From the IMG/VR virus record IMGVR_UViG_3300004481_000286, positions 1-40,546 of that record: a DNA stretch of 40,546 bases; one strand, given 5' to 3'. Under the pieces are notes generated by a model. That model saw only the letters and a program-made list of their open reading frames with translations. It was not told where the DNA came from and ran no database searches. Positions within the stretch are counted from its first letter, which is position 1, and every line of letters begins with the position of its first letter. Both the position numbers and the translations under genes were made by a program. This DNA is from a virus. Below, in pieces: positions 12,256-36,276 of the stretch.

Positions 12256-12411
12256 ATGGAAACCACGCGACACCACGAAGAATTGATTGAAACTTTAGAG
12301 CGCATTGCCCAAGCCCTTGAGTGCATTCAAGACAGGCAAGGCGTGATTGCAAATGCGCTGCTGCAATTATCCGATCACCACGGCAGCAAGGTGCCAGGAC
12401 CGTACCGATGA
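12256..12411 (+). CDS. 51-aa hypothetical protein, first gene of the rightward arm (absent from the ORF track)
   Basis: My own translation is METTRHHEELIETLERIAQALECIQDRQGVIANALLQLSDHHGSKVPGPYR. Its stop shares an ATGA overlap with the next gene's start at 12408. Confidence 0.45.
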   Translation: METTRHHEELIETLERIAQALECIQDRQGVIANALLQLSDHHGSKVPGPYR

Positions 12412-14666
12412 CCTACCAAGACTTCCTAGCTTCAAAATCAACTGCCGCACCTGTTGCGGGGTTTGACCCGCAGGGGTTTACGGCGCCGCTGTTTCCGTTT
12501 CAGCGGGACATCGTGACCATGGCGTGCCGCGTCGGCAAGTTCTGCATCTGGGCCGACTGCGGCATGGGCAAAACTGCCATGCAGCTTGAGTGGGCGCATC
12601 AGGTGCACCTAGAAACCGGCGACAACGTGCTTGTGTTGGCGCCGCTTGCGGTAGCCCACCAGACCGTGCGTGAGGGCAGCAAGTTCGGCATCCCATGCCA
12701 GTTTGCGGCAACGCAAGCTGAGGTGAAGCCCGGCATCACGGTGACCAACTATGAGAAGTTGGCGCATTTTGACGCCGGCAGTTTTGCAGGTGTGGTGCTG
12801 GACGAGAGCAGCATCCTCAAGTCATACACGGGCAAGACCCGCAACCAGATCATCGAGTCATTTGCGCAGACGCCATACCGGCTGGCGTGCTCAGCTACGC
12901 CAGCGCCCAATGACCACATGGAGCTAGGCAATCATGCCGAGTTCATTGGGGTCATGACGCGTACTGAGATGCTGGCCATGTTCTTCGTGCATGACGGCGG
13001 CGACACCGCTAAATGGCGCCTTAAGGGTCACGCGCAAAGCAAGTTCTGGGAGTGGGTGTGCAGTTGGGCGGTGACGATCCGCAAGCCATCGGATCTGGGC
13101 TATGACGATGGCGACTTCGTGCTGCCAGCGCTGCAGATCCAAGATTGCACGGTGGAGACACCACGCGAGGCGGTCGCTGATGACGCAGGCCAGATGGCGT
13201 TATTTGCCATGGAGGCCCGCAGCCTTAACGATCAGCGCAAGGTGCGTAAGGCAAGCCTGCAATTGCGGGTTGACGCTGCAGCACAGCTTGCCAATAGCAA
13301 CGGTGAGCAGTGGCTGGTGTGGTGCGATCTCAATGATGAGAGCAAAGCGCTGACTGCTGCTATTGCTGGCGCTGTCGAGGTGTGCGGCGCTGATAGTGAT
13401 GACCATAAGCGGCAAGCGGCCATCGACTTTCAAGATGGCAAAATCCGCGTGCTGGTCAGCAAGCCCAGCATCTTTGGGTTTGGCCTGAACTTCCAGCGGT
13501 GCCACAACGTGGCATTTGTTGGGCTGAGTCATAGCTACGAGGCGTTCTATCAAGCCATCCGTAGGTGCTGGCGGTTTGGCCAGCAGCAACCAGTTAATGC
13601 GCACATCATCTACGACGTAGGCGAGGGTCGCGTGATTGAAAACATCCGCCGCAAAGAAGCGGACAGCATCCAAATGGCCCAATCAATGGTTGAAATCATG
13701 AAGCAACAAACCATGGAACAACTCAAAAAGATTCAGCGCCAAGTGGCACCGCATGTCACTGAGCACAAGTCCGGCGACAACTGGGACATGTACATGGGCG
13801 ACTGCGTGGAGAGCATTAAACAGCTTGACTCAGACAGCATCCACTACAGCATCTTTAGCCCGCCGTTTGCGTCGCTGTACACCTACAGCAATAGCGACCG
13901 TGATATGGGCAACAGCCGCACCAATCAGGAGTTCTTCGATCACTTTGTATTCCTGGCTAAGGAGCTGCATCGCGTGATGATGCCTGGCAGGTTGATTAGC
14001 TTCCACTGCATGAATCTGCCTAGCAGTAAAGAACGCGATGGCTTTATTGGTGTGAAGGACTTCCGTGGTGACATGCTGCGCATTTTCCAGGCTGCAGGAT
14101 TTGTATTCCATAGCGAGGTGTGCATCTGGAAGGATCCAGTCACCGCGATGCAGCGCACCAAAGCCATTGGCCTGCTGCATAAGCAAGTGCGCAAGGACTC
14201 AGCGCTTAGCCGCCAGGGCATCCCGGACTACCTGGTGACCGTGCGCAAGCTGGGCGACAACCCGGAGCCTGTCGCTGGACCGTTCACGGAGTTTGCAGGC
14301 GAGAATCCACCACCCAAAAGCAAGGATCCGATTAAAGACTCGATCAACATCTGGCAGCGGTATGCCAGCCCGGTTTGGATGGACATCAACCCATCGGATA
14401 CGCTCCAGTACCGCAGCGCACGAGCTAATGAGGATGAGCGCCACATCTGCCCGCTGCAGCTTGAGGTGATCCGTCGCGGCCTGCAGCTATGGAGCAACCC
14501 AGGCGACCTGGTGCTGTCGCCATTTGCCGGCATCGGCAGCGAGGGCTATTGCAGCCTGCAGATGGATCGCCGGTTTGTCGGCTTTGAGCTGAAACCGTCC
14601 TATTACAACTGCGCCGTGAAGAACCTGACGGAAGTTGCCAGCAATAAGCAGGGGGTGCTGGTGTGA
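12408..14666 (+). CDS. SNF2/SF2 helicase fused to beta-class N4/N6 DNA methyltransferase (SPPF catalytic motif, probably N4-cytosine type)
   Basis: Helicase motifs are ADCGMGKT (I), VVLDESS (II), CSATPAPND (III), and a C-lobe VLVSKPSIFGFGLNFQ...QAIRRCWRFGQ. Methyltransferase motifs are IHYSIFSPPF (IV), HICPLQLEV, and VLSPFAGIGSEG (I) in the PF01555 order. The likely ATG at 12408 is coupled to the upstream ORF. The track start at 12321 gives an Arg/Cys-rich, unlikely N-terminus. Confidence 0.88.
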   Translation: MTYQDFLASKSTAAPVAGFDPQGFTAPLFPFQRDIVTMACRVGKFCIWADCGMGKTAMQLEWAHQVHLETGDNVLVLAPLAVAHQTVREGSKFGIPCQFAATQAEVKPGITVTNYEKLAHFDAGSFAGVVLDESSILKSYTGKTRNQIIESFAQTPYRLACSATPAPNDHMELGNHAEFIGVMTRTEMLAMFFVHDGGDTAKWRLKGHAQSKFWEWVCSWAVTIRKPSDLGYDDGDFVLPALQIQDCTVETPREAVADDAGQMALFAMEARSLNDQRKVRKASLQLRVDAAAQLANSNGEQWLVWCDLNDESKALTAAIAGAVEVCGADSDDHKRQAAIDFQDGKIRVLVSKPSIFGFGLNFQRCHNVAFVGLSHSYEAFYQAIRRCWRFGQQQPVNAHIIYDVGEGRVIENIRRKEADSIQMAQSMVEIMKQQTMEQLKKIQRQVAPHVTEHKSGDNWDMYMGDCVESIKQLDSDSIHYSIFSPPFASLYTYSNSDRDMGNSRTNQEFFDHFVFLAKELHRVMMPGRLISFHCMNLPSSKERDGFIGVKDFRGDMLRIFQAAGFVFHSEVCIWKDPVTAMQRTKAIGLLHKQVRKDSALSRQGIPDYLVTVRKLGDNPEPVAGPFTEFAGENPPPKSKDPIKDSINIWQRYASPVWMDINPSDTLQYRSARANEDERHICPLQLEVIRRGLQLWSNPGDLVLSPFAGIGSEGYCSLQMDRRFVGFELKPSYYNCAVKNLTEVASNKQGVLV

Positions 14667-16012
14667 TGCACCTCCGCCCTTACCAACAACAACTGATCAC
14701 CGACATCCGGCTGCAATACCAGCTAGGGCGTAAGGCAGTCCTAGCAGTGCTGCCGACCGGCGGCGGCAAGACCGTGTGCTTTAGCTACATCGCCGAGCAA
14801 GCCGCCAAAAAGGGCAACCGCGTGCTGGTGCTTGTGCATCGGCAGGAGCTTCTAGATCAAGCCAGCAGGGCGATGGCCGTACCCCATGGCCGCATCAGCG
14901 CCAGCCGCAGCATGGACTTGTCCTACGCCGTACAGGTGGCATCAGTCCAAACCGTAGCCCGGAGATTGCACCTGCTGCCGCGTGACTTCTTTCAGCTGCT
15001 AGTGGTTGACGAGGCCCACCACACCACCGCCGGCACATGGGCCAAGGTCATCGAGCACTTTGCAGCTGCCAAGCTGCTAGGCGTCACCGCAACGCCGATA
15101 CGCGGTGACGGTCGCGGCCTAGGTGAGCACTACCAAGCGATGGTGGAAGGTCCAACTGCGCAGCAGCTGACGGATGACGGATTCCTCGCTGCGGCCAAGG
15201 TGCTAGCACCGCCGGGGTTTGACTCAGCCGGCTTGCGTAAGCGGATGGGTGATTTCGACACCAAGCAAGCCGAGCAGCGCGTCGGCACGATCATGGGCGA
15301 CTGCCTTGGCCATTACCGCAAACACCTGCTAGGCCAGACAGCGATTGCCTTCTGCTGCTCAGTGGCCCATGCTGAGGCGGTAGCTGCCTTGTTCCAGTCG
15401 GCTGGTATCGCCGCGGCCAGCATCGATGGCAGCATGGATGCCGGCACTAGGCGGGAGCTACTCAGCGACCTCGGCACCGGTCGGCTCAAGGTGCTGACCA
15501 GTTGCGCGCTCATCGGTGAAGGCGTGGACGTACCAAGCGTTGGCGGCTGCATCCTGCTGCGGCCTACGGCATCAGTGGCATTGCACCTGCAGATGATTGG
15601 CCGTTGTTTGCGCCCACAACCTGGCAAGCGTGCGGTAGTGCTGGATCATGTCGGCAACACACTGCGGCTTGGCCACCACCTAGAGCCGCGTGAGTGGACG
15701 CTGGAGGGGCTAAAGAAGCGCGACCGCGACGCAGCCCCATCGGTCAAGGTGTGCCCTACATGCTTTGCCACCAGCATCAGCACTGCGCAGGCGTGCCGCG
15801 AGTGCGGGCATGTGTTCGCGCCACCAGAGCGCAGGGAGTTGCGGCAGGTTGATGGTGAGCTGGTGGAGGTGGCGGCACGTGAGCGCAAGCGAGAGCAAGG
15901 TTCTGCGCAGTCGCTGGATGATCTCCGCGAGCTAGCACGTCAGCGACGCTATAAACCTGGTTGGGCGGAGCGGGTTTACCAGGCGCGACTGGCTAAGCGT
16001 TACGGAATGTGA
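14666..16012 (+). CDS. DEAD/DEAH-box SF2 helicase (type III restriction Res-like / XPB-like) with C-terminal zinc ribbon
   Basis: LPTGGGKT, VVDEAHH, GVTATP, the helicase C-lobe, then CPTCFATSISTAQACRECGH. It shares a TGATG overlap with the upstream gene. Confidence 0.85.
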   Translation: MHLRPYQQQLITDIRLQYQLGRKAVLAVLPTGGGKTVCFSYIAEQAAKKGNRVLVLVHRQELLDQASRAMAVPHGRISASRSMDLSYAVQVASVQTVARRLHLLPRDFFQLLVVDEAHHTTAGTWAKVIEHFAAAKLLGVTATPIRGDGRGLGEHYQAMVEGPTAQQLTDDGFLAAAKVLAPPGFDSAGLRKRMGDFDTKQAEQRVGTIMGDCLGHYRKHLLGQTAIAFCCSVAHAEAVAALFQSAGIAAASIDGSMDAGTRRELLSDLGTGRLKVLTSCALIGEGVDVPSVGGCILLRPTASVALHLQMIGRCLRPQPGKRAVVLDHVGNTLRLGHHLEPREWTLEGLKKRDRDAAPSVKVCPTCFATSISTAQACRECGHVFAPPERRELRQVDGELVEVAARERKREQGSAQSLDDLRELARQRRYKPGWAERVYQARLAKRYGM

Positions 16013-16022
16013 CCGGCTACGG

Positions 16023-16050
16023 TTGCGCATGGCGGCAGATGGTGTATTGT
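16023..16050 (+). promoter_or_regulatory. possible internal promoter TTGCGC-N16-TATTGT
   Basis: Read in the 79-bp gap after the helicase gene. It is a hexamer match only. Confidence 0.25.
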
Positions 16051-16091
16051 TAGGGGACAGCGGACAAGAGCCGCACCCCAAACCGAGAACC

Positions 16092-16274
16092 ATGACCCTC
16101 CAGCAAGTCCTTCAGTTCAAAGCCGCCGAGAAGGCCGCCAAAGACGCTTTCTACGCCGCAGCCGGTCCCGCAGGCAGCAAGGTGACCGCTAAGCAAGCCA
16201 AGCTGCACGCAGCCATGGTGGCAGCTACCAAGGCTCGCCAAGCAGCAATGACCGCTTACGCCGATACCCTCTGA
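16092..16274 (+). CDS. 60-aa Ala/Lys-rich helical protein
   Basis: The internal ATG of ORF 16023-16274 gives MTLQQVLQFKAAEKAAKDAF.... It abuts the next gene's start. Confidence 0.45.
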   Translation: MTLQQVLQFKAAEKAAKDAFYAAAGPAGSKVTAKQAKLHAAMVAATKARQAAMTAYADTL

Positions 16275-16868
16275 GTGCGCGTCTTAGTTGCCTGCGAGTA
16301 CAGCGCCCGCGTCCGCGATGCATTTCGTAGGCGCGGGCACGACGCGTGGAGCTGTGACCTGCTGGAATGCGAGGTTGACCCGCAATGGCACCTGCAGCAA
16401 CCGGTTGAGGAGTTGCTAGGTGATGGCTGGGATCTGATGGTGGCGCGCCCGCCTTGCACCCATCTGGCCGTTTCTGGCAGCAGGCACTTTCACCGCAAGC
16501 AACAGCAGCAGGTTGAGGCCTTGGACTTTGTGCGGCTGCTGATGGCGGCACCAATAGATAGGTGGTGCATCGAAAACCCGGTCAGCATCATCAGCAGTGC
16601 CATCAGGCCACCTAGTCAGATCATCCAGCCGTGGTGGTTTGGCCACGGCGAAACCAAGTCAACGTGCTTGTGGCTGAAGAACCTACCGCTGCTAAAGCCA
16701 ACGCAGGTGGTTGATGGGCGTGAGGCCAAGGTGCATCGGATGCCGCCGGGGCCTAACAGGTGGAAAGAGCGCAGCCGTACATATATAGGCGTGGCCGATG
16801 CCATGGCGCAGCAATGGGGAGCCGTTACGCTGCCCGCACCGGTTGAGCAGCTAAGCCTTGGCATCTGA
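16275..16868 (+). CDS. minimal C5-cytosine-methyltransferase-like protein (PC and ENP motifs, no obvious target-recognition domain)
   Basis: 197 aa with a GTG start. MRVLVACEYSARVRDAF is a degenerate motif I position. ARPPCTHLAVSG is the motif IV Pro-Cys. CIENPV is motif VI. SRTYIGVADAMAQQWG is the C-terminal motif. It resembles a short phage family usually labelled DNA cytosine methyltransferase (from memory). Confidence 0.65.
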   Translation: MRVLVACEYSARVRDAFRRRGHDAWSCDLLECEVDPQWHLQQPVEELLGDGWDLMVARPPCTHLAVSGSRHFHRKQQQQVEALDFVRLLMAAPIDRWCIENPVSIISSAIRPPSQIIQPWWFGHGETKSTCLWLKNLPLLKPTQVVDGREAKVHRMPPGPNRWKERSRTYIGVADAMAQQWGAVTLPAPVEQLSLGI

Positions 16869-17208
16869 ACAGTCCATCCAGCAACACATCCGCATAGCCT
16901 GCTCAACCGGCAATACCAGGCTCTTCCGCAATAACACCGGCACGCTCAAAGACCAGCACGGCAGGCCGGTGCAGTTTGGCCTGTGCAAAGGCAGCGCCGA
17001 CCTCATCGGCTACCGGAGCATCACCATTACCCCCGACATGGTGGGCCAGCAGGTGGCGGTATTCACCAGCATCGAGGTGAAGACGCCAACCGGCAGGCTC
17101 AGACCCGAGCAGCAGGCATGGATGGATACGGTCCAGGCGGCAGGCGGCATTGCAGGCGTGGCACGGTCAGTTGAGGACGCGTTGCGGATTGTGACTGCAC
17201 AGGGTTGA
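16858..17208 (+). CDS. VRR-NUC domain nuclease (PD-(D/E)XK)
   Basis: GSADLIGY...VFTSIEVKTPTGRLRPEQQAWMDTVQAAGGIAGVARSVEDA matches the VRR-NUC D...EVK...Q..W pattern. It has a TTG start because there is no upstream ATG. Confidence 0.78.
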   Translation: MASEQSIQQHIRIACSTGNTRLFRNNTGTLKDQHGRPVQFGLCKGSADLIGYRSITITPDMVGQQVAVFTSIEVKTPTGRLRPEQQAWMDTVQAAGGIAGVARSVEDALRIVTAQG

Positions 17209-17232
17209 CGACGGCGGCGCAGGGTGTAGGAT
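17205..17232 (+). promoter_or_regulatory. possible internal promoter TTGACG-N16-TAGGAT
   Basis: Read in the gap between the VRR-NUC gene and the next gene. It is a hexamer match only. Confidence 0.3.
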
Positions 17233-17274
17233 ACGGGGACAGGAGGCGAGAGCTTCCACCCCACACCGAGAGCC

Positions 17275-17577
17275 ATGACCGTCACCACCTTCCGCAGCTC
17301 CTACGGCGCCTACAACGTGACCCGCGCCGTGTTGGCTTGCCAGCCTGAGATCAGCGCCGAGGGTACCACCACCCAGAGCGTGCTGATCTTTGAAACAACT
17401 GATCAGCAAGAAGCCGTCAGCATTGTTGGCAAGACTCTGTTCCTGCAAGCTGATGGCCGCACCTTTGAGGCCAGCTACGACGGTCAGCGCCGCACCTCCC
17501 TTAAGCCTTCCGCCCGCAAGCAATACGCAAGCGCACTGAAGCAGGGCTACAGCGCTGACATCGAGCTGATCTACTGA
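17275..17577 (+). CDS. hypothetical protein
   Basis: 100-aa ORF on the operon strand. The long minus ORF opposite it (17167-17619) is Ala/Gly/Leu-rich and typical of antisense reading in GC-rich DNA. Confidence 0.5.
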   Translation: MTVTTFRSSYGAYNVTRAVLACQPEISAEGTTTQSVLIFETTDQQEAVSIVGKTLFLQADGRTFEASYDGQRRTSLKPSARKQYASALKQGYSADIELIY

Positions 17578-17636
17578 CCCCAAGCGGCCCGCCAGAGCCG
17601 CACCCAATCTGGCAACCACACACTGCGACCCAAACC

Positions 17637-17780
17637 ATGATCACCAACCCTTGGATCAACCGCATCAGCGCCTTGCTGCTGCTGTGCGTCATCTACGCCG
17701 CTGGCTACTCCGGTGGCCGCGACCAAGCCGTGCAGGCATACCACAACCATCCCGCTTGCAATACCAACCTCAAGCCATGA
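17637..17780 (+). CDS. 47-aa single-pass membrane peptide (absent from the ORF track)
   Basis: My own translation is MITNPWINRISALLLLCVIYAAGYSGGRDQAVQAYHNHPACNTNLKP. It shares an ATGA overlap with the next gene. Confidence 0.4.
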   Translation: MITNPWINRISALLLLCVIYAAGYSGGRDQAVQAYHNHPACNTNLKP

Positions 17781-17977
17781 GCGAATCCGACATCTACTGG
17801 ACCTTTGTTACCGCCAGCAAGTACGCCGGCAGTTTTTACCAAGCAATGGGCAATGCTGGCCTCGCCGCTGACCCCAACAACAAGCGCCGCATCCTGCAGG
17901 CATTCCCTGAGATGGTTGCCACCTATGGCACTGCCAGCAGGTTGCATCAAACCATGCGCAGCGGGATAGCGGCATGA
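17777..17977 (+). CDS. hypothetical protein
   Basis: The internal ATG of ORF 17651-17977 gives MSESDIYWTFVTASKYAGSFYQAMGNAGL.... It is coupled to the genes on both sides. Confidence 0.5.
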   Translation: MSESDIYWTFVTASKYAGSFYQAMGNAGLAADPNNKRRILQAFPEMVATYGTASRLHQTMRSGIAA

Positions 17978-18753
17978 ACAGCAACGCCGAATACCACGCC
18001 GACCCAGCCATCAGCGCCAGCCACCTCAAGGCGGTGATGCAATCGCCTTACCACTACTGGAGCCGGTATGTAGACCCGCGGCGGCCAGTGGTTGAGCCAA
18101 CCGCAGCAATGCGGCTGGGCAGCCTCGCCCATTGCGCAGTGCTGGAACCTGATGAGTTGCTGCAGCGCTATGGCGTTTGCGGTCCACGCAACACCAAAGC
18201 CGGCAAAGAGCAGGCTGAGCGCATGGCCGCTGATGGCATTGAGGCTGTCACCAACACCGACATGGCGCTAGCCCTCAGCATGGCCGCCAGTGTCCGCCAG
18301 CATCCATACGCTGCCGCACTGCTAGCTGATGGCAAGGCTGAGCAGTCGTTCTGGTGGGATGACAAGGCAACCGGCCAGCGTTGCAAGTGCCGGCCTGACT
18401 GGTATCAAGGCACCACCATCGTGGATCTCAAGACCTGCCAGGACGCAAGCCCTGGCGCCTTTGCCCGCGCTTGCGCCACCTTCGGCTATCATACGCAGGC
18501 CAGCCACTACCTCAACGGCACATTTGCGGATCGGTTTGTCTTCATCGCAGTGGAGAAGACCTACCCGTATGCCGTTGGCGTGTACGAGCTGGATGCTGAC
18601 GCCATGGCCACTGGTGCTGAGCAATGCCGCATTGGCTTGCAAACCATCAGCGACTGCCGTGCCATCAATGAATGGCCGAGCTACACCACCACCTGCGACA
18701 TCATCGCAATGCCCAAATGGGCGCTATCTACGACCCCAACTATTGACTTCTGA
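17974..18753 (+). CDS. PD-(D/E)XK recombination exonuclease (RecE C-terminal / DUF3799-like)
   Basis: 259 aa. The motifs are YHADPAISASHLK, GSLAHCAVLEP, KCRPDWY...IVDLKT and FIAVEKTYPYAVGVYEL. It lies directly upstream of recT. Confidence 0.78.
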   Translation: MNSNAEYHADPAISASHLKAVMQSPYHYWSRYVDPRRPVVEPTAAMRLGSLAHCAVLEPDELLQRYGVCGPRNTKAGKEQAERMAADGIEAVTNTDMALALSMAASVRQHPYAAALLADGKAEQSFWWDDKATGQRCKCRPDWYQGTTIVDLKTCQDASPGAFARACATFGYHTQASHYLNGTFADRFVFIAVEKTYPYAVGVYELDADAMATGAEQCRIGLQTISDCRAINEWPSYTTTCDIIAMPKWALSTTPTIDF

Positions 18754-19520
18754 TGAGCACACTTGCCCTCTGGACACCAGAGCAGACGCAGCTAATTTCC
18801 ACCACCATCGCCCCAGGCTGTAGTACTGATGAGCTGCGGCTGTTTGCCTACGCCTGCCAGCGCACCGGCTTAGATCCGTTCAGCAAGCAGATCTACGCCA
18901 TCAAGCGTGGCGGCAAGATGACCATTCAAGCCGGCATTGACGGCCTGCGCAGCATTGCGGAGCGCACTGGCCAGCTTGACGGATCCGAAACTTATTGGTG
19001 CGGAGAAGATGGCCAATGGACTGATGTATGGCTTGGCAGCAAGCCACCTGCAGCAGCCAAAACCATCTTGCACCGCAAAGGCGCTAACCATCCGTTCGTA
19101 GGCGTCGCCCGCTTTGCTGATTACAACGCCGGCCAAGGCCTTTGGTCCAAAATGCCCGCAGCGATGATCGCCAAATGCTCCGAGGCCCTGGCGCTCCGCA
19201 AGGCATTTCCTGCTGACCTCAGCGGCGTCTACAGCACTGATGAGATGGATCAGGCAGTTGAGCCGGTGACGGTAACCGCAGCACCTGCGCCGGCACTGCC
19301 CGCCAAGGCGGCAGGTGATGCAAAGGTATTTCAGGCCGGCAAGGTAGCGATTGCCAAGGCTGATACGCTCACCAAGCTGCAGGAAGTTACCAAACGCATG
19401 GAAACCCGCAAGGGTGACCTAAGCGATGAGCAAAACCAGCAGTTGCTTGAGCTGGCGCTAGCTAAGGAGTCAGAGCTAGCAGCGCCCGCCAACGAAGAGG
19501 ATCCGTTTGCCGATGACTGA
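18753..19520 (+). CDS. recT: RecT-family single-strand annealing protein
   Basis: GLDPFSKQIYAIKRGGKMTIQAGIDGLRSIAERTGQ... and WSKMPAAMIAKCSEALALRKAFP are classic RecT motifs. Confidence 0.88.
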   Translation: MSTLALWTPEQTQLISTTIAPGCSTDELRLFAYACQRTGLDPFSKQIYAIKRGGKMTIQAGIDGLRSIAERTGQLDGSETYWCGEDGQWTDVWLGSKPPAAAKTILHRKGANHPFVGVARFADYNAGQGLWSKMPAAMIAKCSEALALRKAFPADLSGVYSTDEMDQAVEPVTVTAAPAPALPAKAAGDAKVFQAGKVAIAKADTLTKLQEVTKRMETRKGDLSDEQNQQLLELALAKESELAAPANEEDPFADD

Positions 19521-19737
19521 ACCCACCCGCCCCACCTTCATGGCGATCACCAGCACTGGCGGATACATCGGGCGCTGGTTTTGGAACAACAGCGGCGTCC
19601 ATTCCGACTTCCCGCGTTGGGGATCCATTCAGGCCATCCCTGACCCAACACTTCCCGGCGAACCGTGGGGCGTCTGGGCCGGCATGTTTCCTGTGATTCA
19701 ACAGATCATCAACTGGAGGTTTTACGACACGCAATGA
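19507..19737 (+). CDS. hypothetical Trp-rich protein
   Basis: 76-aa ORF coupled to the neighbouring genes at both ends. Confidence 0.45.
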   Translation: MPMTEPTRPTFMAITSTGGYIGRWFWNNSGVHSDFPRWGSIQAIPDPTLPGEPWGVWAGMFPVIQQIINWRFYDTQ

Positions 19738-19943
19738 CTGAACCGTATCTCACAACTGACCAACTGGCGGCACGTTGGGGGCTAAAGCCAGCAGCCATCA
19801 AAAACCAACGCGCACGCAACATCGGACCTAGCTACTACACAATCCCGCGTATCGGCTTCCCTGCTGGTACGCCACGGGTGCGGTATCCACTAGCCCAAGT
19901 CCTGGCCTTTGAAGAGGCCAATTCCATCACCCCACTTAACTGA
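19734..19943 (+). CDS. small helix-turn-helix DNA-binding protein (excisionase/MerR-like HTH)
   Basis: MTEPYLTTDQLAARWGLKPAAIKNQRARNIGPSYYTIP.... It shares an ATGA overlap with the upstream ORF. Confidence 0.5.
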   Translation: MTEPYLTTDQLAARWGLKPAAIKNQRARNIGPSYYTIPRIGFPAGTPRVRYPLAQVLAFEEANSITPLN

Positions 19944-19944
19944 C

Positions 19945-20292
19945 ATGAGTCTTTACGCAACTGGCATCGTTCGCTTGATTACTGAGCCAACAATGCGCAC
20001 CTTTGACAGCGGCACTGTTGTCACCAACTTCGCTGGTGGTATTCAAGAGGGCAAAGATAAAGATGGCAATTGGATTAACAATGCCATCGACTGCGAAGTA
20101 TGGGGCAAGTCTGCTGAGCTGATTGTCGATAAACTCAAGAAAGGCGACAGCATCCTGATAACAGGTGCCATCCGCCGGCAAGAATGGAGCGACAAAGAAA
20201 CTGGCGCCAAGCGCAGTAAGCACATCCTGAGCATTCAGCGGTTTGAGTTCATGCCCCGTGGCGCGGTTGCTAGCGAGGAGGCAGTGTTCTAA
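19945..20292 (+). CDS. ssb: single-stranded DNA-binding protein (OB fold)
   Basis: MSLYATGIVRLITEPTMRTFDSGTVVTNFAGGIQE...CEVWGKSAELIVDKLKKGDSILITGAIRRQEW is a typical SSB pattern. Confidence 0.78.
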   Translation: MSLYATGIVRLITEPTMRTFDSGTVVTNFAGGIQEGKDKDGNWINNAIDCEVWGKSAELIVDKLKKGDSILITGAIRRQEWSDKETGAKRSKHILSIQRFEFMPRGAVASEEAVF

Positions 20293-20435
20293 TGAACCAA
20301 GCCACCCTTGAGATTGCTTTTAAGGAGTGGTGGGAGGCGTCTTACAAGCGCCCTCCTAACCCTCAGGCAGTGATGACTCACGTTGCCTTTGCTGAGCACA
20401 TGCTGCGGCTAATGGAGCTGATGCAGGATGACTGA
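20292..20435 (+). CDS. 47-aa hypothetical protein (absent from the ORF track)
   Basis: My own translation is MNQATLEIAFKEWWEASYKRPPNPQAVMTHVAFAEHMLRLMELMQDD. It shares a TAATG overlap with ssb and overlaps the next gene's start. Confidence 0.35.
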   Translation: MNQATLEIAFKEWWEASYKRPPNPQAVMTHVAFAEHMLRLMELMQDD

Positions 20436-20763
20436 CCAACACCCGATCACCCCACCGCCTGAGCTGATTGAAGACTGGATTGAGATAGCTAAACCGTTGG
20501 CTCAACGGCCACCTAATCCAGGTGAGTTTGCAACATTAGCCGCCCGCTGGGGCGCCAACCAGGAGCTGGAGGCGTGTGTTGAGTGGTTTGTCCGCGACTG
20601 GACTGATATTGAAACAGCAGACAAGCTCCGCGCCGCCCGCCGCCCCAAGCCACCGAGCTTGAAGGAGCAGGCGCTTGACGCTCTTCACGGCATTCATGAC
20701 CAAGGCCCGACCCCTGAACAGGTCCTCACCATCCGCCTCGCACTGCAGCAACTCAATGACTGA
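20428..20763 (+). CDS. hypothetical protein
   Basis: 111-aa ORF on the operon strand. Confidence 0.5.
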   Translation: MTDQHPITPPPELIEDWIEIAKPLAQRPPNPGEFATLAARWGANQELEACVEWFVRDWTDIETADKLRAARRPKPPSLKEQALDALHGIHDQGPTPEQVLTIRLALQQLND

Positions 20764-20992
20764 CCTCTCCCCCGCCGCGCAGGCGGTGTTGACAGCGTTC
20801 AAGGCACACCCGCTACGGGCTGATCACATTGCCCAAGATCTGGTGCCGGCACTTGCCACCGCCCTGCGAGCTGCTGCGGATCAGGTGGTGCCACTGCCAC
20901 GCCTTCCATACGATTCTTGCTGCGACGTTTCAGCCTCAGCCATACGCGCCGAGCTGATGGCCATCGCCGCCGAGCTGGAGGGCAATGCCTAG
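20756..20992 (+). CDS. hypothetical protein
   Basis: The internal ATG of ORF 20675-20992 gives MTDLSPAAQAVLTAFKAHPL.... Confidence 0.45.
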   Translation: MTDLSPAAQAVLTAFKAHPLRADHIAQDLVPALATALRAAADQVVPLPRLPYDSCCDVSASAIRAELMAIAAELEGNA

Positions 20993-21212
20993 AGGCTGCG
21001 TCGTACAAATCCCCTGCCCCCAATGTGGCGGCAGGGCCACCTATGTGGTTTGCACTTTTCACACCGAAGCGGAGCAGTTAGTTAGAAGGCGCCGCTGCCG
21101 GTTCTGCGACCACCGCTGGTACACCATCCAAGACCCAGAACAACCGCTCAGTAAATACCGCATTAAATGGAAACCAGGTAAGCGCATTGTTGAGCTAACC
21201 AATGATCCCTAA
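20985..21212 (+). CDS. zinc-ribbon protein (NrdR N-terminus / Ogr-Delta-like CxxC...CxxC)
   Basis: CPQCGGRATYVVCTF...RRRRCRFCDHRWYT. This is the four-Cys ribbon with an Arg run, as in the NrdR zinc ribbon (from memory). Confidence 0.55.
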   Translation: MPRGCVVQIPCPQCGGRATYVVCTFHTEAEQLVRRRRCRFCDHRWYTIQDPEQPLSKYRIKWKPGKRIVELTNDP

Positions 21213-21447
21213 ACGCATCCGCAATCGCACGTTAAATATCCGCGTGACAGATGATGAAATTGCACTAGCCCGCAAGCTAGGAAATGGCAACGCATCACAT
21301 GGATACAGGTTGGCGATACGTTACATGGCGGATCGCTCCATTCGCGGCATTCCGCTTAGTACAATGCTCCGGGCTGCAGCGCAAATGGCTGCTGAGCTTG
21401 AAGGCACGCCTAAGCACGGCAGGACACCCACCACCAGACCTCAATGA
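21202..21447 (+). CDS. ribbon-helix-helix-like DNA-binding protein
   Basis: RTLNIRVTDDEIALARKLGNGNASHGYRLAIRYM is an RHH pattern. Confidence 0.45.
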   Translation: MIPKRIRNRTLNIRVTDDEIALARKLGNGNASHGYRLAIRYMADRSIRGIPLSTMLRAAAQMAAELEGTPKHGRTPTTRPQ

Positions 21448-22001
21448 CAATTCTCTCGGATCACGAAATCTTCAGCCTGATCAATGACGGCATGGTGCAA
21501 AACCATCACCGCGACCTGATCAATCCCGCCAGTCTGGACTTGCGGCTTGGCAATTTGATCATGCTTGAATCGGTGTCATCGCATCAGATGATCCCATTGG
21601 ATATCGGCCAATACACCGTTGATCGTCCTTACGAGTTGGTGCCAGGGCAATTCATCTTGGCGCAAACCATGGAAACGTTCAATATGCCAGAAGATATCGC
21701 GGGGTTGTTTTTTCTTAAGTCAAGCCGCGCACGAGAGGGCTACGAAAACCTGCACGCCGGTTACGCAGATCCAGGGTGGCATGGCAGCACGTTAACGCTT
21801 GAGCTAAAGAACGCCCGCCAACTGCAATCGCTGCCGCTCTATCCGGGCCTAAAGATTGGGCAGATGGTGTTCTTCCGCATGAGCAGCAAGCCAGCGATTA
21901 GTTACGCCGATGTGGGTCACTACAACAACGATGCGATGGTGTCACCCTCCAAGCAATTCCCTAGCAGCGTCGAGATGCCAGGCCTGGATGCTGCCGCATG
22001 A
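21444..22001 (+). CDS. dcd: dCTP deaminase (dUTPase superfamily)
   Basis: MTILSDHEI...INPASLDLRLG...ELVPGQFILAQTMETFNMPEDIAGLFFLKSSRAREG...GYADPGWHGSTLTLEL is a canonical Dcd pattern. Confidence 0.88.
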   Translation: MTILSDHEIFSLINDGMVQNHHRDLINPASLDLRLGNLIMLESVSSHQMIPLDIGQYTVDRPYELVPGQFILAQTMETFNMPEDIAGLFFLKSSRAREGYENLHAGYADPGWHGSTLTLELKNARQLQSLPLYPGLKIGQMVFFRMSSKPAISYADVGHYNNDAMVSPSKQFPSSVEMPGLDAAA

Positions 22002-22184
22002 TGATATTGCCTCTTGCGTCAACCAATGAATTTGCGACCGCTGGCTGGCTTCAGCCTCAGCCAACAGCAGCGCATATTCCAGCAACCCATTCATGTCGCC
22101 GCGTTTATGCAGTTCGCGCAATGCACTTGCGTTGGCAGCACCATGGAATTGTGCTTCCATTGTGTGAACCAGCGGGATCATCAT
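21942..22184 (-). CDS. opposite-strand small ORF in the dcd-sigma gap (hypothetical; extent uncertain)
   Basis: MEAQFHGAANASALRELHKRGDMNGLLEYALLLAEAEASQRSQIHWLTQEAI looks helical and protein-like. By my own count its third-position GC is higher than that of the competing plus-strand ORFs 21998-22195 and 22014-22208. The last 20 codons are antisense to dcd. Confidence 0.3.
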   Translation of the reverse strand: MMIPLVHTMEAQFHGAANASALRELHKRGDMNGLLEYALLLAEAEASQRSQIHWLTQEAISSCGSIQAWHLDAARELLGG

Positions 22185-23085
22185 GTCATCTATAAAAAAC
22201 TACCTTAACGAGATCGCAAGGTATCCATTGCTTACGGTGGACCAAGAGATTCAGTACGGTAGGCGCATCGCCAAGATGCGTGAGCTGCAACAGCTGGATC
22301 GCGACTTAACACCAGCAGAGGATCGGTTAGTGCGCAGTGGCCAACGTGCACGCGAGCGGTTCATTCAATGCAACCTGCAGCTGGTTGTGCACGTCGCCAA
22401 AAAGTACGAAGGCCGTAAGCGCAAGTCGCTTGAGATCATGGATTTGATTCAAGAGGGCAACATCGGCCTAGCGCGTGCGGTTGAATTGTTTGATTACTCA
22501 CGCGGCTACAAGTTCAGCACTTATGCGTACTGGTGGATTAAGCAAGGCATACAACGTGCATTGTCGCAGAATGATTCGATGATCAGGCTGCCGAGTGGTA
22601 TGCATGATCTGCTGGCAAAGGTAGCGCGCACCCATTCGGATTTAGGCCATCGATTAGGTCGCACGCCGTCGCTGCTAGATATTGCTGATGAGATTGGCGT
22701 TGATGTTAATACTATCCACGATGCAATCCAACGCAGCTATGCAGTATGCAGTTTGGATATGACACCGCCATCAGCTGATAGCATTACGCTTTTGGATGTC
22801 ATCGCAGATCCGCAATCTACGATTGATTTCGATGAGCTGAGCCTAAGCCATCAAGCGCAAGAGATGATGGACCTGATGGAAAAATACCTAGACGACCGCT
22901 CTAAATATGTCATCAGAAGTCGGCGATTGCAAAAGCCGCTAACTTGGCGTGAACTTGAATCAACCACTGGCGTATCGTCAACTCGGCTGATGCAGATCGA
23001 AAAGGCTGCAATGCTTAGATTGAGAATGATGCTGAACAAAGGAAGAGAACTACATGGCACACCACTGGGATCCTGTGACAATTGA
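22183..23085 (+). CDS. sigma-70 family RNA polymerase sigma factor (regions 1.2, 2, 3 and 4 present; group 2/3-like)
   Basis: YLNEIARYPLLTVDQEIQYGRRI is region 1.2. NLQLVVHVAKKY...DLIQEGNIGLARAVELFDYSRGYKFSTYAYWWIKQGIQRAL is region 2. MIRLPSGMHDLLAKV is region 3. TWRELESTTGVSSTRLMQIEKAAMLRLR is region 4. Confidence 0.9.
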   Translation: MSSIKNYLNEIARYPLLTVDQEIQYGRRIAKMRELQQLDRDLTPAEDRLVRSGQRARERFIQCNLQLVVHVAKKYEGRKRKSLEIMDLIQEGNIGLARAVELFDYSRGYKFSTYAYWWIKQGIQRALSQNDSMIRLPSGMHDLLAKVARTHSDLGHRLGRTPSLLDIADEIGVDVNTIHDAIQRSYAVCSLDMTPPSADSITLLDVIADPQSTIDFDELSLSHQAQEMMDLMEKYLDDRSKYVIRSRRLQKPLTWRELESTTGVSSTRLMQIEKAAMLRLRMMLNKGRELHGTPLGSCDN

Positions 23086-23153
23086 ACAAATCGGCGATGT
23101 ATGGCGCGTCTGCGTTGCCGGCATATGCAGACAGCATCATCAAGAATGGCAGG

Positions 23154-23468
23154 CTAGAGTTTTCTATCACCAGATGACAGCCACTGCTGCACCGCTAGCT
23201 CACGATCCAGCAACCAATAAGATTGCGTCTTGAACCACTGCTGCCAATGGTCACTGCCTTTGCGGCGGTTACACGGCCTACAGGCAGGCACGAGATTAGT
23301 TGTCACCGTAGCGCCGCCTTTATGGCGCGGCTTGACGTGATCTAAGGTATCGGCTGCTTCGCCGCAATAGGCGCAGAGATGCTGCCATGCTTCAAAGATT
23401 TGGTTTCTAAATTGCTGCTTTGCACTGCGTTTTGGGATGAGGTTGGCGCCGTCAATCCTGTGATCCAC
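23154..23468 (-). CDS. HNH endonuclease
   Basis: CAYCGEAADTLDHVKPRHKGGATVTTNLVPACRPCNRRKG. Confidence 0.88.
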   Translation of the reverse strand: MDHRIDGANLIPKRSAKQQFRNQIFEAWQHLCAYCGEAADTLDHVKPRHKGGATVTTNLVPACRPCNRRKGSDHWQQWFKTQSYWLLDRELAVQQWLSSGDRKL

Positions 23469-24511
23469 TAATAATCCCAGCGGACTTTAGGGCGGCCTTT
23501 GCGTATTCCTAAATGTACGAATCCTTTGGGCGCTCCATACCCTAATGAATACGGCCAATTGGCATCGCACCATTCCTGGACGTGGTTGATATTGACCTCG
23601 CGGATGTACCAATCAACAGCCCCAACGCTAGGCGCATCGTATAAGTGCTCACTGGCGCTAGATCCGCCTACAGCTGCATTGATGGCACGCGGGCGGTAGC
23701 CGCTGGTGATCACCACTGGTTTGCCGCCAAATTGCGCACGGGCACGCTCGATAAAGGCAGCCAGCTCAGCTGCGGTGTCCACCTGATGCTGATGCTGAAA
23801 CCGCCGCGCCTCTTGCCATAGCGCAAACTCGCCGAGCTGGATATGCGGCGTAATGCGCGCATCAAATGGACTACCGGGTGACAGCTTGACGGCGCTCTGC
23901 TGAACCTGTGGCAAGCCTTTGGCCCATAGTTTACCTTCAGCCTCGCGGCGACGCTTGAGGCCTGCCTCGAAGCTGCTGCCAGGGTTGCGGTACAGCAACA
24001 GTGCTTCGGGTACACCACGCCAATCTTTATCTTTTAGCCGCTTGCTGATGGTTTCAAATCCTGCAGCACCGTAGAAGCCAGCGCCAAGGTTGTAAGCAAA
24101 AGAGATCAATGCCGCCTGCTGGTTAGCTGACATCTCATTCCAATGCGGGATGCTGCGCAGCCGCTCAACGATGCGGTCGATTTCACGCGCCAGCATCTGC
24201 TCAGCTTGCGCTTGCGTGATGGTGTCGCCTTGCTTGACGCCAGTGGTGGTGCCGTAGCCGATGGTCCACACGCCAGCGGGGCACTTGTAGGCGGTTAAGT
24301 GGCAGCCCTCAAACTCTTTAATGAGCTTGATGGCGGCGCTGTGGTCCTGCTGCTTACCGGACTGCTGCCAAGTCTTGTACCACGGCTGATCCCTATTAAA
24401 GATTTGCGGTGCAACCTTTAATAGCTCAGCCTCTAATTCAACGACTGCCGCCATTTGATGTGGCGCGCCATGCTTGTAATACCGGAACAAATCCGACAGC
24501 TTAATTGTCAT
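23468..24511 (-). CDS. bifunctional endolysin: GH24 lysozyme domain plus C-terminal M15-type zinc peptidase domain
   Basis: IKEFEGCHLTAYKCPAGVWTIGYGTT...ALISFAYNLG is the T4-lysozyme-like domain. GKPVVITSGYRPRAINAAVGGSSASEH...AVDWY...FVHLG is the Peptidase_M15 H/D/H pattern. Confidence 0.85.
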   Translation of the reverse strand: MTIKLSDLFRYYKHGAPHQMAAVVELEAELLKVAPQIFNRDQPWYKTWQQSGKQQDHSAAIKLIKEFEGCHLTAYKCPAGVWTIGYGTTTGVKQGDTITQAQAEQMLAREIDRIVERLRSIPHWNEMSANQQAALISFAYNLGAGFYGAAGFETISKRLKDKDWRGVPEALLLYRNPGSSFEAGLKRRREAEGKLWAKGLPQVQQSAVKLSPGSPFDARITPHIQLGEFALWQEARRFQHQHQVDTAAELAAFIERARAQFGGKPVVITSGYRPRAINAAVGGSSASEHLYDAPSVGAVDWYIREVNINHVQEWCDANWPYSLGYGAPKGFVHLGIRKGRPKVRWDY

Positions 24512-36223: not shown

Positions 36224-36240
36224 GAAATAACTCTAGGCGC

Positions 36241-36268
36241 AAAAAAGCCCCAGCGCAAGCCGGGGCTG
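36241..36268 (-). terminator. rho-independent terminator/attenuator downstream of the major tail gene
   Basis: The minus strand reads AGCCCCGGC-TTGC-GCTGGGGCT, a 9-bp stem with one G-U pair, followed by TTTTTT. Confidence 0.7.
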
Positions 36269-36276
36269 ATTTGTTA

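What the first reader, a model, noticed from the sequence alone, without database searches (positions are those of the whole stretch)
21942..23085. Full-length phage sigma-70 family factor at the end of the early arm, preceded by an opposite-strand small ORF
- The 300-aa protein has recognisable regions 1.2, 2.1-2.4, 3 and 4, so it is a complete promoter-recognition subunit and not a fragment.
- Its region 2.4 reads YAYWWIKQGIQRAL. The canonical housekeeping form, from memory, is YATWWIRQAITRAI. The -10 preference may therefore be altered.
- It is the last gene of the rightward arm, so it would accumulate late. It could redirect host RNAP to the ~29-kb leftward structural transcript, for example from the iteron region.
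- The 181-bp gap before it contains no convincing same-strand gene.
- The best-looking ORF there is on the opposite strand (MEAQFHGAANASALRELHKRGDMNGLLEYALLLAEAEASQRSQIHWL...). Its start region abuts the sigma start codon.
- That ORF could be an antisense-encoded regulator (an anti-sigma candidate), a moron, or an artefact.
- By eye the dcd-sigma segment also looks less GC-rich than its neighbours, which would be consistent with separate acquisition.
Basis: partly seen in the sequence, partly recalled or inferred. Interest (0 to 1): 0.62.

Follow-up and report, generated by a model that had tools for sequence, protein, structure and literature searches.

The report
Phage sigma factor with conserved partner gene
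This uncultured cyanophage-like virus carries an ordinary phage sigma factor, but the small opposite-strand ORF in front of it is a real, strongly conserved gene of an undescribed protein family that usually sits head-to-head with the phage sigma gene, and its function is still unknown.

Summary
The sigma gene (22183-23085, +, 300 aa) is complete from region 1.2 to region 4.2 and is the last rightward gene.

**Sigma.** It is a cyanosiphovirus-type, group-2-like sigma, a kind known from S-CBS1, S-CBS3, S-LBS1 and KBS2A. S-CBS3 has the same layout: sigma, then a convergent HNH gene and endolysin.
- Region 2.4 is not unusual. The Tyr and Gly are standard in cyanobacterial group-2 sigmas, and the Lys also occurs in a host paralogue.
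- The real departures are the region 4.2 recognition helix (host RERIRQ; window SSTRLMQ) and the lost region 3.0 His. Both hold across the clade, so a non-canonical -35 is likely.

**Small ORF (21942-22184, -).** It is not an artefact.
- It has 217 homologues, and 80 viral loci share the same gene order.
- Median dN/dS is 0.065, and it is the only frame open in all 49 unique copies.
- It is more conserved than sigma.
- Its start codon overlaps sigma's in a CATG found in all 39 unique junctions.
- It encodes an acidic helical hairpin with no Pfam, PHROG, PDB or GenBank-phage match.
- The pairing with sigma persists in distant lineages, but four lineages carry the gene after the endolysin with no adjacent sigma.

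Its function is unproven. My best guess is a sigma- or RNAP-directed protein partner inside an antisense early/late switch. The lower GC is real but not exceptional. The tool for finding RNA runs was closed.

The parts
22183..23085 (+). Phage sigma-70 family factor, 300 aa, regions 1.2 to 4.2, without region 1.1. It is group-2-like and of the cyanosiphovirus type.
   Evidence: Pfam r1.2, r2 and r3 above cut-off, r4 weak. PHROG 351, E 3e-61. TIGR02997 cyanoRpoD 232 bits, below the 384.5 cut-off. Full-length alignment to SigA structures. 38.6% identity to S-CBS3 rpsD4. The clade is monophyletic and lies outside group 1.
21942..22184 (-). Conserved small gene, 80 aa: an acidic helical-hairpin protein of an undescribed family.
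   Evidence: 217 homologues. 80 syntenic loci. Median dN/dS 0.065 and the only frame open in all copies. AF2 pLDDT 88, helices 9-27, 31-63 and 68-77. No Pfam, PHROG, NCBIfam, PDB or BFVD match. pI 5.6, no transmembrane segment.
22182..22185 (.). CATG palindrome in which the two divergent start codons overlap by two bases.
   Evidence: Present in all 39 unique junction sequences of the clade and in a further lineage, L196. L004 and L005 have Ile at the internal Met9, so Met1 is the start.
21444..22001 (+). dCTP deaminase gene. Its last 60 nt overlap the 3' end of the small gene in convergent orientation.
   Evidence: Pfam DCD, E 8.5e-28. PHROG 1663. It is a variable neighbour: absent in L068, L186-L188 and L196, where the small protein has a different or shorter C-terminus.
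22522..22563 (+). Sigma region 2.4 (YAYWWIKQGIQRAL).
   Evidence: Compared with host and phage sigmas. It is canonical for cyanobacterial group 2 apart from Gln at the Thr440-equivalent position, which is limited to the window's sub-clade.
22579..22614 (+). Sigma region 3.0 (MIRLPSGMHDLL). The His that reads the extended -10 in primary sigmas is replaced by Gly, Ser, Ala or Asn across the clade.
   Evidence: The role of the His is from established knowledge of E. coli sigma70 H455/E458.
22939..23028 (+). Sigma region 4.2 helix-turn-helix with a diverged recognition helix: SSTRLMQ in the window, where host sigmas have S/T-RERIRQ.
   Evidence: The E585- and R588-equivalent residues are lost in every clade member but kept in S-CBS3, KBS-S-2A and the host group 1/2 sigmas. 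Pfam r4 is below cut-off.
23086..23153 (.). Convergent junction between sigma and HNH, with no terminator on either strand.
   Evidence: No terminator-like site in 21000-24000. The folds are weaker than shuffled sequence, z +1.3 and +1.4.
23154..24511 (-). HNH endonuclease (23154-23468) and endolysin (23468-24511). They form the end of the leftward late arm, on the same strand as the small gene.
   Evidence: Pfam HNH, Phage_lysozyme and Peptidase_M15_3. PHROG endolysin, E 2e-140. An endolysin lies on the far side of sigma, or directly upstream of the small gene, in every context examined.

Best explanation
There are two linked genes.

1. The 300-aa protein is a cyanosiphovirus-type, group-2-like sigma-70 factor. 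It binds host core RNA polymerase. It probably reads promoters with a near-normal -10 but a non-canonical -35, or none, because its region 4.2 recognition helix and its region 3.0 His differ from host sigmas. Which phage or host promoters it serves is not known.

2. The 80-aa opposite-strand ORF is a genuine gene for an acidic, soluble helical-hairpin protein. I propose that it is a protein-protein accessory of the transcription take-over: it binds the phage sigma, the host primary sigma or core RNAP, as an anti-sigma or sigma-partner type of factor.

I further propose that the interleaved layout works as an antisense toggle. The layout is dcd rightward, small leftward, sigma rightward, HNH and endolysin leftward, with start codons sharing CATG and no intergenic DNA or terminators. 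Early rightward transcripts that carry sigma run antisense to the small gene. Late leftward transcripts that read past HNH run antisense to sigma and carry the small gene.

Shown: both genes are real, the pairing and the overlap are conserved, and the protein is acidic and helical.
Inferred: the binding partner, the timing and the toggle.
For: Sigma:
- It shares phage-sigma signatures with S-CBS3 and KBS-S-2A: an insert after KKY and ELFD in place of EKFD.
- It has the same genome layout as S-CBS3.
- The clade is monophyletic and lies outside group 1.
- The changes in regions 4.2 and 3.0 are clade-wide.

Small gene:
- Purifying selection and exclusive frame openness.
- It is 69-92% identical where sigma is only 50-81%.
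- The CATG overlap is present in 39 of 39 unique junctions.
- The head-to-head pairing with sigma recurs in both deep halves of the family tree. It recurs with different outer neighbours: dcd, an NrdR-type zinc ribbon, or a 124-130-aa unknown.
- Every member checked is acidic (pI 4.7-6.3) and lacks a transmembrane segment, so neither a DNA-binding repressor nor a holin is likely.
- The AF2 model is a confident helical hairpin.

Toggle:
- No promoter-like or terminator-like site in 21000-24000.
- No stable hairpin at the convergent junction.
- No excess synonymous constraint in the sigma 5' codons, so no strong embedded promoter is evident there.
Against: - There is no sequence or fold similarity to any known anti-sigma factor or RNAP-binding protein.
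- Four lineages carry the small gene directly downstream of an endolysin, on the same strand, with no sigma in the DNA seen. These are P0150, P0155, P0188 and P0170. About 20 kb was visible around P0188 and around P0170; the P0150 and P0155 loci were only 3.5 and 5.8 kb.
- Known anti-sigma genes are usually co-transcribed with their sigma, not divergent from it.
- Cultured sigma-bearing cyanosiphoviruses lack the gene, so sigma does not need it.
- No promoter motif for the phage sigma could be defined.
Confidence: 0.4

Rival explanations
1. The small protein is the terminal accessory gene of the late (lysis-side) operon and has nothing specifically to do with sigma. The sigma gene merely sits, in reverse orientation, in the slot between the endolysin and this gene at the early/late boundary. 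The small protein would then act on some other conserved host target, for example in lysis timing, host shut-off or counter-defence.
For: - In nearly every context the small gene is on the same strand as the endolysin and downstream of it. It follows the endolysin directly or after one gene in L183, L184, L185/L189 and L192/L194, where no sigma is seen.
- It is more conserved than sigma, as expected for a protein that contacts a conserved host component.
- Cultured sigma-bearing cyanosiphoviruses lack it.
Against: - The head-to-head pairing, with 0-2 nt between or across the start codons, is kept in several lineages while the other neighbours change. It also occurs in both halves of the family tree.
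- The protein has no transmembrane segment or signal peptide, so it is not a holin or spanin.
- The endolysin type differs between contexts, so it is not a partner of one particular lysin.
- In L188 the endolysin is on sigma's strand, not on the small gene's strand.
Confidence: 0.33
2. The phage sigma is mainly an auxiliary gene that reprograms host metabolism or stress genes, as has been proposed for cyanophage sigma factors. On this view it is not the driver of the phage's own late leftward transcription.
For: - It is group-2-like, and cyanobacterial group-2 sigmas control stress and carbon-metabolism regulons.
- Papers on cyanophage sigmas favour this view (PMC12284385, which cites Sawa et al. 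2019).
Against: - The -35 recognition helix has lost the residues that host group 1/2 sigmas use, so it is unlikely to read host group-2 promoters unchanged.
- The roughly 29-kb leftward arm has almost no intergenic DNA, so late promoters could be embedded in coding sequence and would go unrecognised.
Confidence: 0.3
3. The small ORF is not translated. Its conservation would then reflect an RNA or DNA element, such as the sigma leader or promoter, or a same-strand gene.
For: A local dip in synonymous variation at codons 8-11, which lie 22-33 nt upstream of the sigma ATG, hints at an additional overlapping signal.
Against: - Variation is concentrated at third codon positions: 55 of 58 vary, against 25 first and 17 second positions. 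Median dN/dS is 0.065.
- All other frames carry stops in most or all sequences.
- Homologues down to about 30% identity keep the length and the helical pattern.
Confidence: 0.02

Closest known systems
Sigma factors of cultured cyanosiphoviruses (S-CBS3 gp29 'rpsD4', S-CBS1, KBS-S-2A, S-LBS1 rpoD)
   Same: - About 300 aa, starting at region 1.2.
- 38.6% identity to S-CBS3 and 39.7% to KBS-S-2A; the KBS-S-2A match covers only residues 3-218.
- Shared signatures: an insert after KKY in region 2.1-2.2 and ELFD in place of EKFD.
- S-CBS3 has the same position near the end of the replication arm, facing a convergent HNH and endolysin.
- These phages are described in PMC6157547 and PMC3751600.
   Different: - The cultured phages keep the canonical R-E-x-x-R-Q recognition helix in region 4.2, which this clade has lost.
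- None of them, nor any other GenBank phage record, encodes the small head-to-head gene.
- The tree does not resolve them as sister to this clade.
Cyanobacterial group-2 sigma factors (SigB-E type, TIGR02997 Sig70-cyanoRpoD)
   Same: - The best NCBIfam model for the window sigma.
- The closest cellular hits are cyanobacterial, at 34-39% identity.
- The YAYWWI(R/K)QG motif is shared, and the Lys variant is present in a Synechococcus RCC307 paralogue.
   Different: - It scores 232 bits, under the 384.5 cut-off.
- It forms its own phage clade.
- Regions 4.1/4.2 and 3.0 have diverged.
T4 AsiA (phage anti-sigma and sigma appropriator)
   Same: A small (80-90 aa), all-helical, acidic phage protein that could redirect RNAP. 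This is a working analogy only.
   Different: - No sequence or fold match: the PDB, which should include the AsiA structures, gave no hit.
- T4 does not pair AsiA head-to-head with a sigma gene.
- Binding to sigma region 4 has not been tested here.
Convergent and antisense transcription switches of temperate coliphages (186 pR/pL interference, lambda oop/cII antisense)
   Same: Opposed transcription units overlap without terminators, so that one arm's transcription could silence the other's terminal gene.
   Different: Here the overlap would cover whole genes, and the two start codons share four bases. No transcript data exist for this phage.

Membership tests
Sigma-70 family, groups 1/2 (four-region sigma) | Regions 1.2, 2, 3 and 4 are all present in order. 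| tested here: met
   Pfam r1_2, r2 and r3 are above cut-off. r4 scores 19.9 bits, below 24.1. The alignment to SigA structures covers residues 3-282, including region 4.2.
Sigma-70 family, groups 1/2 (four-region sigma) | The -10 melting and recognition residues of regions 2.3/2.4 are conserved (the aromatic Y/W cluster and the Q437 equivalent). | tested here: met
   FSTYAYWWIKQGIQRAL keeps the aromatic cluster and the Gln. Only the T440 equivalent is Gln, and only in this sub-clade.
Group 1 (primary) sigma | Region 1.1 or a long N-terminus is present, and the protein clusters with RpoD/SigA. | tested here: not met
   The protein starts at region 1.2, at residue 3. In the tree it lies outside the group 1 clade, which joins the other bacterial primary sigmas (96% SH-aLRT).
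Cyanobacterial group-2 sigma (TIGR02997) | The score reaches the curated cut-off of the subfamily model. | tested here: not met
   232.3 bits against a cut-off of 384.5. Divergent host paralogues score similarly low, at 254-304 bits.
Cyanosiphovirus sigma (S-CBS3 type) | Homology, shared sequence signatures and shared genome position. | tested here: met
   38.6% identity over 95% of the length. Shared insert and ELFD motif. Same layout with HNH and endolysin. The sister relationship is not resolved.
Canonical -35 recognition by region 4.2 | The R584, E585, R588 and Q589 equivalents are kept in the recognition helix. | tested here: not met
   The window has S-T-R-L-M-Q in the corresponding positions. 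The whole clade lacks the Glu and the second Arg, while the host sigmas and S-CBS3 and KBS-S-2A keep them. The residue roles are from established E. coli and Taq work, recalled and not tested here.
Known anti-sigma factors (AsiA, Rsd, FlgM, zinc-binding anti-sigma domain and others) | Sequence or fold homology to a described anti-sigma family. | tested here: not met
   No Pfam, NCBIfam or PHROG hit for the window protein, and no Pfam hit for any of 40 family members. No PDB sequence hit with a profile. No Foldseek hit with either model.
Known anti-sigma factors | Physical binding to a sigma factor and inhibition or redirection of its activity. | not testable with these tools
   This needs pull-down, two-hybrid or in vitro transcription experiments.
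Protein-coding gene (against artefact) | Purifying selection in this frame, and the frame kept open across relatives. | tested here: met
   55 of 58 third positions vary, against 25 first and 17 second. Median dN/dS is 0.065 and the maximum 0.17. The frame is open in 49 of 49 unique sequences, and no other frame is open in all. Two exceptions among the 80 loci: an in-frame stop (L022) and a changed C-terminus (L068).
Holin, spanin or other membrane lysis protein | A transmembrane segment or a lipoprotein signal. | tested here: not met
   The highest Kyte-Doolittle 19-residue mean is 0.45. The protein is acidic and soluble, and the model is an all-helical hairpin.

The most novel reading that the evidence does not exclude
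The phage sigma and the 80-aa acidic hairpin protein would form a two-gene RNA-polymerase take-over module. The small protein would be a new class of anti-sigma factor or sigma appropriator, or an RNAP-channel binder that uses the invariant Asp at its hairpin turn. The CATG-overlapped divergent starts, together with terminator-free convergent arms, would make a built-in antisense switch between early (sigma on) and late (partner on) expression. The module is widespread in uncultured freshwater cyanophages.
Probability: 0.25. Interest if true: 0.75.

Novelty: new variant of a known kind. Interest (0 to 1): 0.5.

Why it matters
Sigma factors in cyanosiphoviruses have been known since about 2012, but nobody knows which promoters they serve or how they are controlled. 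This window adds two things that can be tested.

1. It shows a large, uncultured clade whose sigma has lost the canonical -35-reading residues. That makes a phage-specific promoter class plausible.
2. It shows an undescribed small-protein family under strong constraint, with at least 217 members, none of them in a cultured phage. In most contexts the gene is joined to the sigma start codon.

If the small protein does bind sigma or RNAP, it would be the first candidate regulator of a cyanophage sigma. It would also be a compact example of gene control by overlapping divergent starts and antisense read-through. If it does not, it is still an abundant, conserved gene of unknown function at the early/late boundary of freshwater cyanophage genomes.

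Tried and rejected
**Function of the small protein**
- Pfam, PHROGs and NCBIfam on the small protein, and Pfam on 40 family members: no hit.
- PDB profile search: no hit.
- Foldseek with two AF2 models against PDB and BFVD: nothing below E = 1.
- tblastn of four family members against 50,697 GenBank phage records: no match.
- Profile search of 401 cyanobacterial genomes for prophage copies: none, and there was no positive control genome.

**Promoters and terminators**
- Scan of 21000-24000: none found.
- Folding of the convergent junction: weaker than shuffled sequence.
- Test for an embedded promoter through synonymous constraint in the sigma 5' codons: no signal, 0.91 against 0.98 bits.
- Inspection of the few gaps in the leftward arm for a shared late-promoter motif: none convincing.

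**Transcription data**

**Contexts of distant homologues**
- Pattern scans with an alignment of distant homologues, and with P0135, P0142 and P0170 in viral contigs: failed or found nothing.
- Whole-record search of the sigma-less contexts: those records are not held.

**Ideas rejected**
- The small protein as a detached sigma region 1.1: no fold match, and the opposite strand argues against it.
- A DNA-binding repressor: every member is acidic.
- A holin or spanin: no transmembrane segment.
Full report
**What is there**

The window is a complete 40.5-kb virus record with direct terminal repeats. Its genes form a rightward arm of about 11 kb (12321-23085) and a leftward arm of about 29 kb that has almost no intergenic DNA.

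At the right end of the rightward arm the order is as follows:
- a zinc-ribbon gene and an 81-aa gene;
- dCTP deaminase, 21444-22001 (+);
- the 80-aa ORF, 21942-22184 (−);
- sigma, 22183-23085 (+);
- then, converging on sigma, HNH endonuclease (23154-23468, −) and endolysin (23468-24511, −).

Every coordinate in the finding is correct.

**The sigma factor**

Pfam finds regions 1.2, 2 and 3 above cut-off. Region 4 is below it, at 19.9 against 24.1 bits. Alignments to solved SigA structures run from residue 3 to residue 282, through region 4.2. The protein starts at region 1.2, so it has no region 1.1.

The best curated model is the cyanobacterial RpoD/SigA subfamily TIGR02997, at 232 bits, below its cut-off of 384.5. 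The closest cellular relatives found are cyanobacterial sigmas at 34-39% identity. That scan was seeded with peptides such as YAYWWIKQ, which biases it towards cyanobacteria.

I took all sigma paralogues of Synechococcus RCC307 and of a Synechococcus lacustris MAG. I classified the RCC307 set with NCBIfam. It holds one group 1 RpoD, SigC- and SigD-like and other group-2 sigmas, three divergent group-2-like sigmas, and one SigF.

In a maximum-likelihood tree:
- the sigmas of this phage clade are monophyletic (100% SH-aLRT);
- they fall outside the group 1 clade;
- they sit in an unresolved polytomy with the cyanobacterial group-2-like sigmas and the S-CBS3 and KBS-S-2A sigmas.

S-CBS3 has the same architecture: ssb, sigma 'rpsD4', a few small genes, then a convergent HNH and endolysin. 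Phage sigmas of this kind are described for S-CBS1, S-CBS3, S-LBS1 and KBS2A (PMC6157547, PMC3751600). The sigma itself is therefore a new member of a known kind.

**Promoter-recognition residues**

- The Tyr in YAYWW and the Gly in QG are the normal cyanobacterial group-2 state.
- The Lys in IKQ also occurs in a host paralogue (L170).
- Most clade members carry the canonical Thr where the window has Gln.

Three other features are more telling.
- **Region 4.2.** Host group 1/2 sigmas and the S-CBS3 and KBS-S-2A sigmas have (S/T)-R-E-R-(I/V)-R-Q. The window has S-S-T-R-L-M-Q, and the whole clade has [RKSG]-[TAG]-[RK]-[LM]-[QM..]-[QNED]. The Glu and the second Arg are lost. From established work on E. 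coli sigma70 and Taq sigmaA, which I recall and did not test, these residues contact -35 bases.
- **Region 3.0.** The His that reads an extended -10 is replaced by Gly, Ser, Ala or Asn.
- **Shared phage signatures.** A 3-aa insert after KKY and an ELFD motif are shared with the cultured cyanosiphovirus sigmas.

My inference is a near-normal -10 preference and a non-canonical -35 preference, or none. I could not define target promoters. The leftward arm has very few gaps, and no shared motif was evident in them.

**The small ORF is a real gene**

- A search of 5.8 billion proteins returned 217 homologues of 58-86 aa at 65-91% identity.
- A scan of viral contigs found 182 encoding stretches, of which the best 80 were kept as loci.
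- Wherever the contig reaches, those 80 loci show the same order: dcd, small gene on the opposite strand, sigma.
- In 49 unique sequences, 55 of 58 third codon positions vary, against 25 first and 17 second positions.
- Median pairwise dN/dS is 0.065 and the maximum is 0.17.
- This is the only one of the six frames that is open in all sequences.
- The protein is 69-92% identical to the window copy where sigma is only 50-81% identical.
- Two kinds of exception were seen among the 80 loci: an in-frame stop (L022) and a changed C-terminus (L068).

**The start-codon overlap**

The first Met is the start. It is the only upstream Met common to all copies, and the internal Met9 is Ile in L004 and L005. 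That start codon and the sigma ATG overlap as 5'-CATG-3' in all 39 unique junction sequences. The same holds in a further lineage, L196. L186 and L187 have a one-base gap between the two start codons, and in L188 they abut with no gap.

Neither gene therefore has upstream intergenic DNA. Each gene's leader or promoter must lie inside the other gene, or further away.

**What the small protein looks like**

- With a diverse alignment, AlphaFold2 gives a confident model: pLDDT 88, helices 9-27 and 31-63 forming a hairpin, plus a short helix 68-77.
- Asp30, conserved in at least 90% of the aligned family members, sits at the hairpin turn.
- Every member checked is acidic (pI 4.7-6.3) and has no transmembrane segment.
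- Nothing matched in Pfam, PHROGs, NCBIfam, PDB sequences, or Foldseek against PDB and BFVD.
- Reading every protein of a 1.8-billion-representative library with a profile found only 44 clusters. All but three long proteins that matched in many short stretches are small, 41-148 aa.
- No GenBank phage record encodes it.
- It was not found in 401 cyanobacterial genomes, though that search had no positive control.

**Contexts of distant homologues**

The pairing with sigma recurs well beyond the window's clade.
- L181 (a 98-kb complete viral contig), L182 and L193 have endolysin, sigma, then the small gene divergent from sigma across a 110-180-nt spacer, then dcd.
- L186-L188 have sigma and the small gene back to back, with a 124-130-aa unknown gene and an SSB/RecT arm in place of dcd.
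- L195-L197 have the CATG overlap, with an NrdR-type zinc-ribbon gene in place of dcd.

Sigma-adjacent members lie in both deep halves of the family tree, though that tree is poorly resolved.

Against a strict link, four lineages carry the gene on the same strand as an endolysin and just downstream of it, with no sigma in the DNA seen. These are P0150, P0155, P0188 and P0170. About 20 kb was visible around P0188 and around P0170; the P0150 and P0155 loci were only 3.5 and 5.8 kb. P0188 is a true homologue (hhalign probability 96.7%).

In nearly all contexts the small gene shares the endolysin's strand. L188 is the one exception seen. The layout can therefore be read in two ways. Either sigma was inserted in reverse between the endolysin and this gene, or the pair is ancestral and sigma was lost in some lines.

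**How it most likely works**

Shown:
- two real genes;
- a conserved pairing and a conserved start-codon overlap;
- an acidic helical protein;
- no terminator-like structure at the convergent sigma/HNH junction;
- no strong embedded promoter signal in the sigma 5' codons.

Inferred, at about 40%: the small protein is a protein-protein accessory of transcription take-over that binds the phage sigma, host SigA or core RNAP. The interleaved arrangement would make early rightward and late leftward transcription mutually antisense over sigma and the small gene, which would give a switch.

The main rival, at about 33%, is that the small gene is simply the last accessory gene of the late, lysis-side operon. 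It would act on another conserved host target, and sigma would be a neighbour by position only. Non-coding explanations are effectively excluded.

**GC content**

Sigma has the lowest GC of the genes checked, 0.491 against 0.558 for the genome. dcd is 0.530. Other segments are as low or lower. Sigma also occupies this position across a deep clade and in S-CBS3. The dip is therefore real but does not show a recent separate acquisition.

**Limits**

- No complex prediction was available.
- The host is inferred to be a (pico)cyanobacterium only from sigma affinities and the S-CBS3-like gene order.
- The roles of the region 4.2 and 3.0 residues rest on recalled literature.

Noticed in passing
window 36224-36276 (minus strand): An intrinsic-terminator-like hairpin, CAGCCCCGGCTTGCGCTGGGGC followed by TTTTTT. 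It lies directly after the 256-aa gene 36277-37047, which I guess is the major capsid gene from its size and position alone. It is the only clear terminator-like element I saw in the leftward arm.
   Followed up: no
L082 (JBBAQJ010000092.1, a 4-kb contig of a 'Polynucleobacter' MAG): It carries a sigma 56% identical to the window's, and this sigma falls inside the phage clade in the tree. It is most likely a mis-binned phage fragment and not evidence for a betaproteobacterial host.
   Followed up: partly
L181 2841-2870, L193 and L182 (the equivalent spacer, minus strand): In the relatives that have a spacer between sigma and the small gene, a -10-like TAGTAT (TAGCAT in L182) ends 6 nt before the sigma GTG start. 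This suggests a leaderless or nearly leaderless sigma mRNA. A sigma70-like site, TGGCCA-18-TATATT, lies about 40 nt upstream of the small gene in L181.
   Followed up: partly
window 21942-22001: The 3' ends of dcd and the small gene overlap by 60 nt on opposite strands. In phages without dcd (L068, L186-L188, and proteins P0051, P0082, P0096), the C-terminal helix of the small protein is replaced or missing. The conserved core is therefore residues 1 to about 62.
   Followed up: partly
L022 (two loci) and L068: Exceptions among the 80 related loci. L022 has an in-frame stop at codon 23 of the small gene, and L068 has a changed C-terminus. These could be sequencing errors or decaying copies.
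   Followed up: no
window 22150-22161 (codons 8-11 of the small gene): A local drop in synonymous variation, with third-position entropy of 0.13-0.31 bits against roughly 1 bit on average for the other codons. It lies 22-33 nt upstream of the sigma ATG and may mark an overlapping signal for sigma expression.
   Followed up: partly
window 23154-23468: The HNH endonuclease gene between sigma and the endolysin gave no match in L006 and L068 and is not called in L182, L186, L188 or L193. It therefore looks like a mobile insertion at the convergent junction.
   Followed up: no
window 20985-21212, and L196 3193-3669: An NrdR-type zinc-ribbon protein recurs near the sigma/small pair in several lineages. 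It is 75 aa in the window, 120 aa in L182 and 158 aa in L196, and in L196 it takes the place of dcd next to the small gene.
   Followed up: partly
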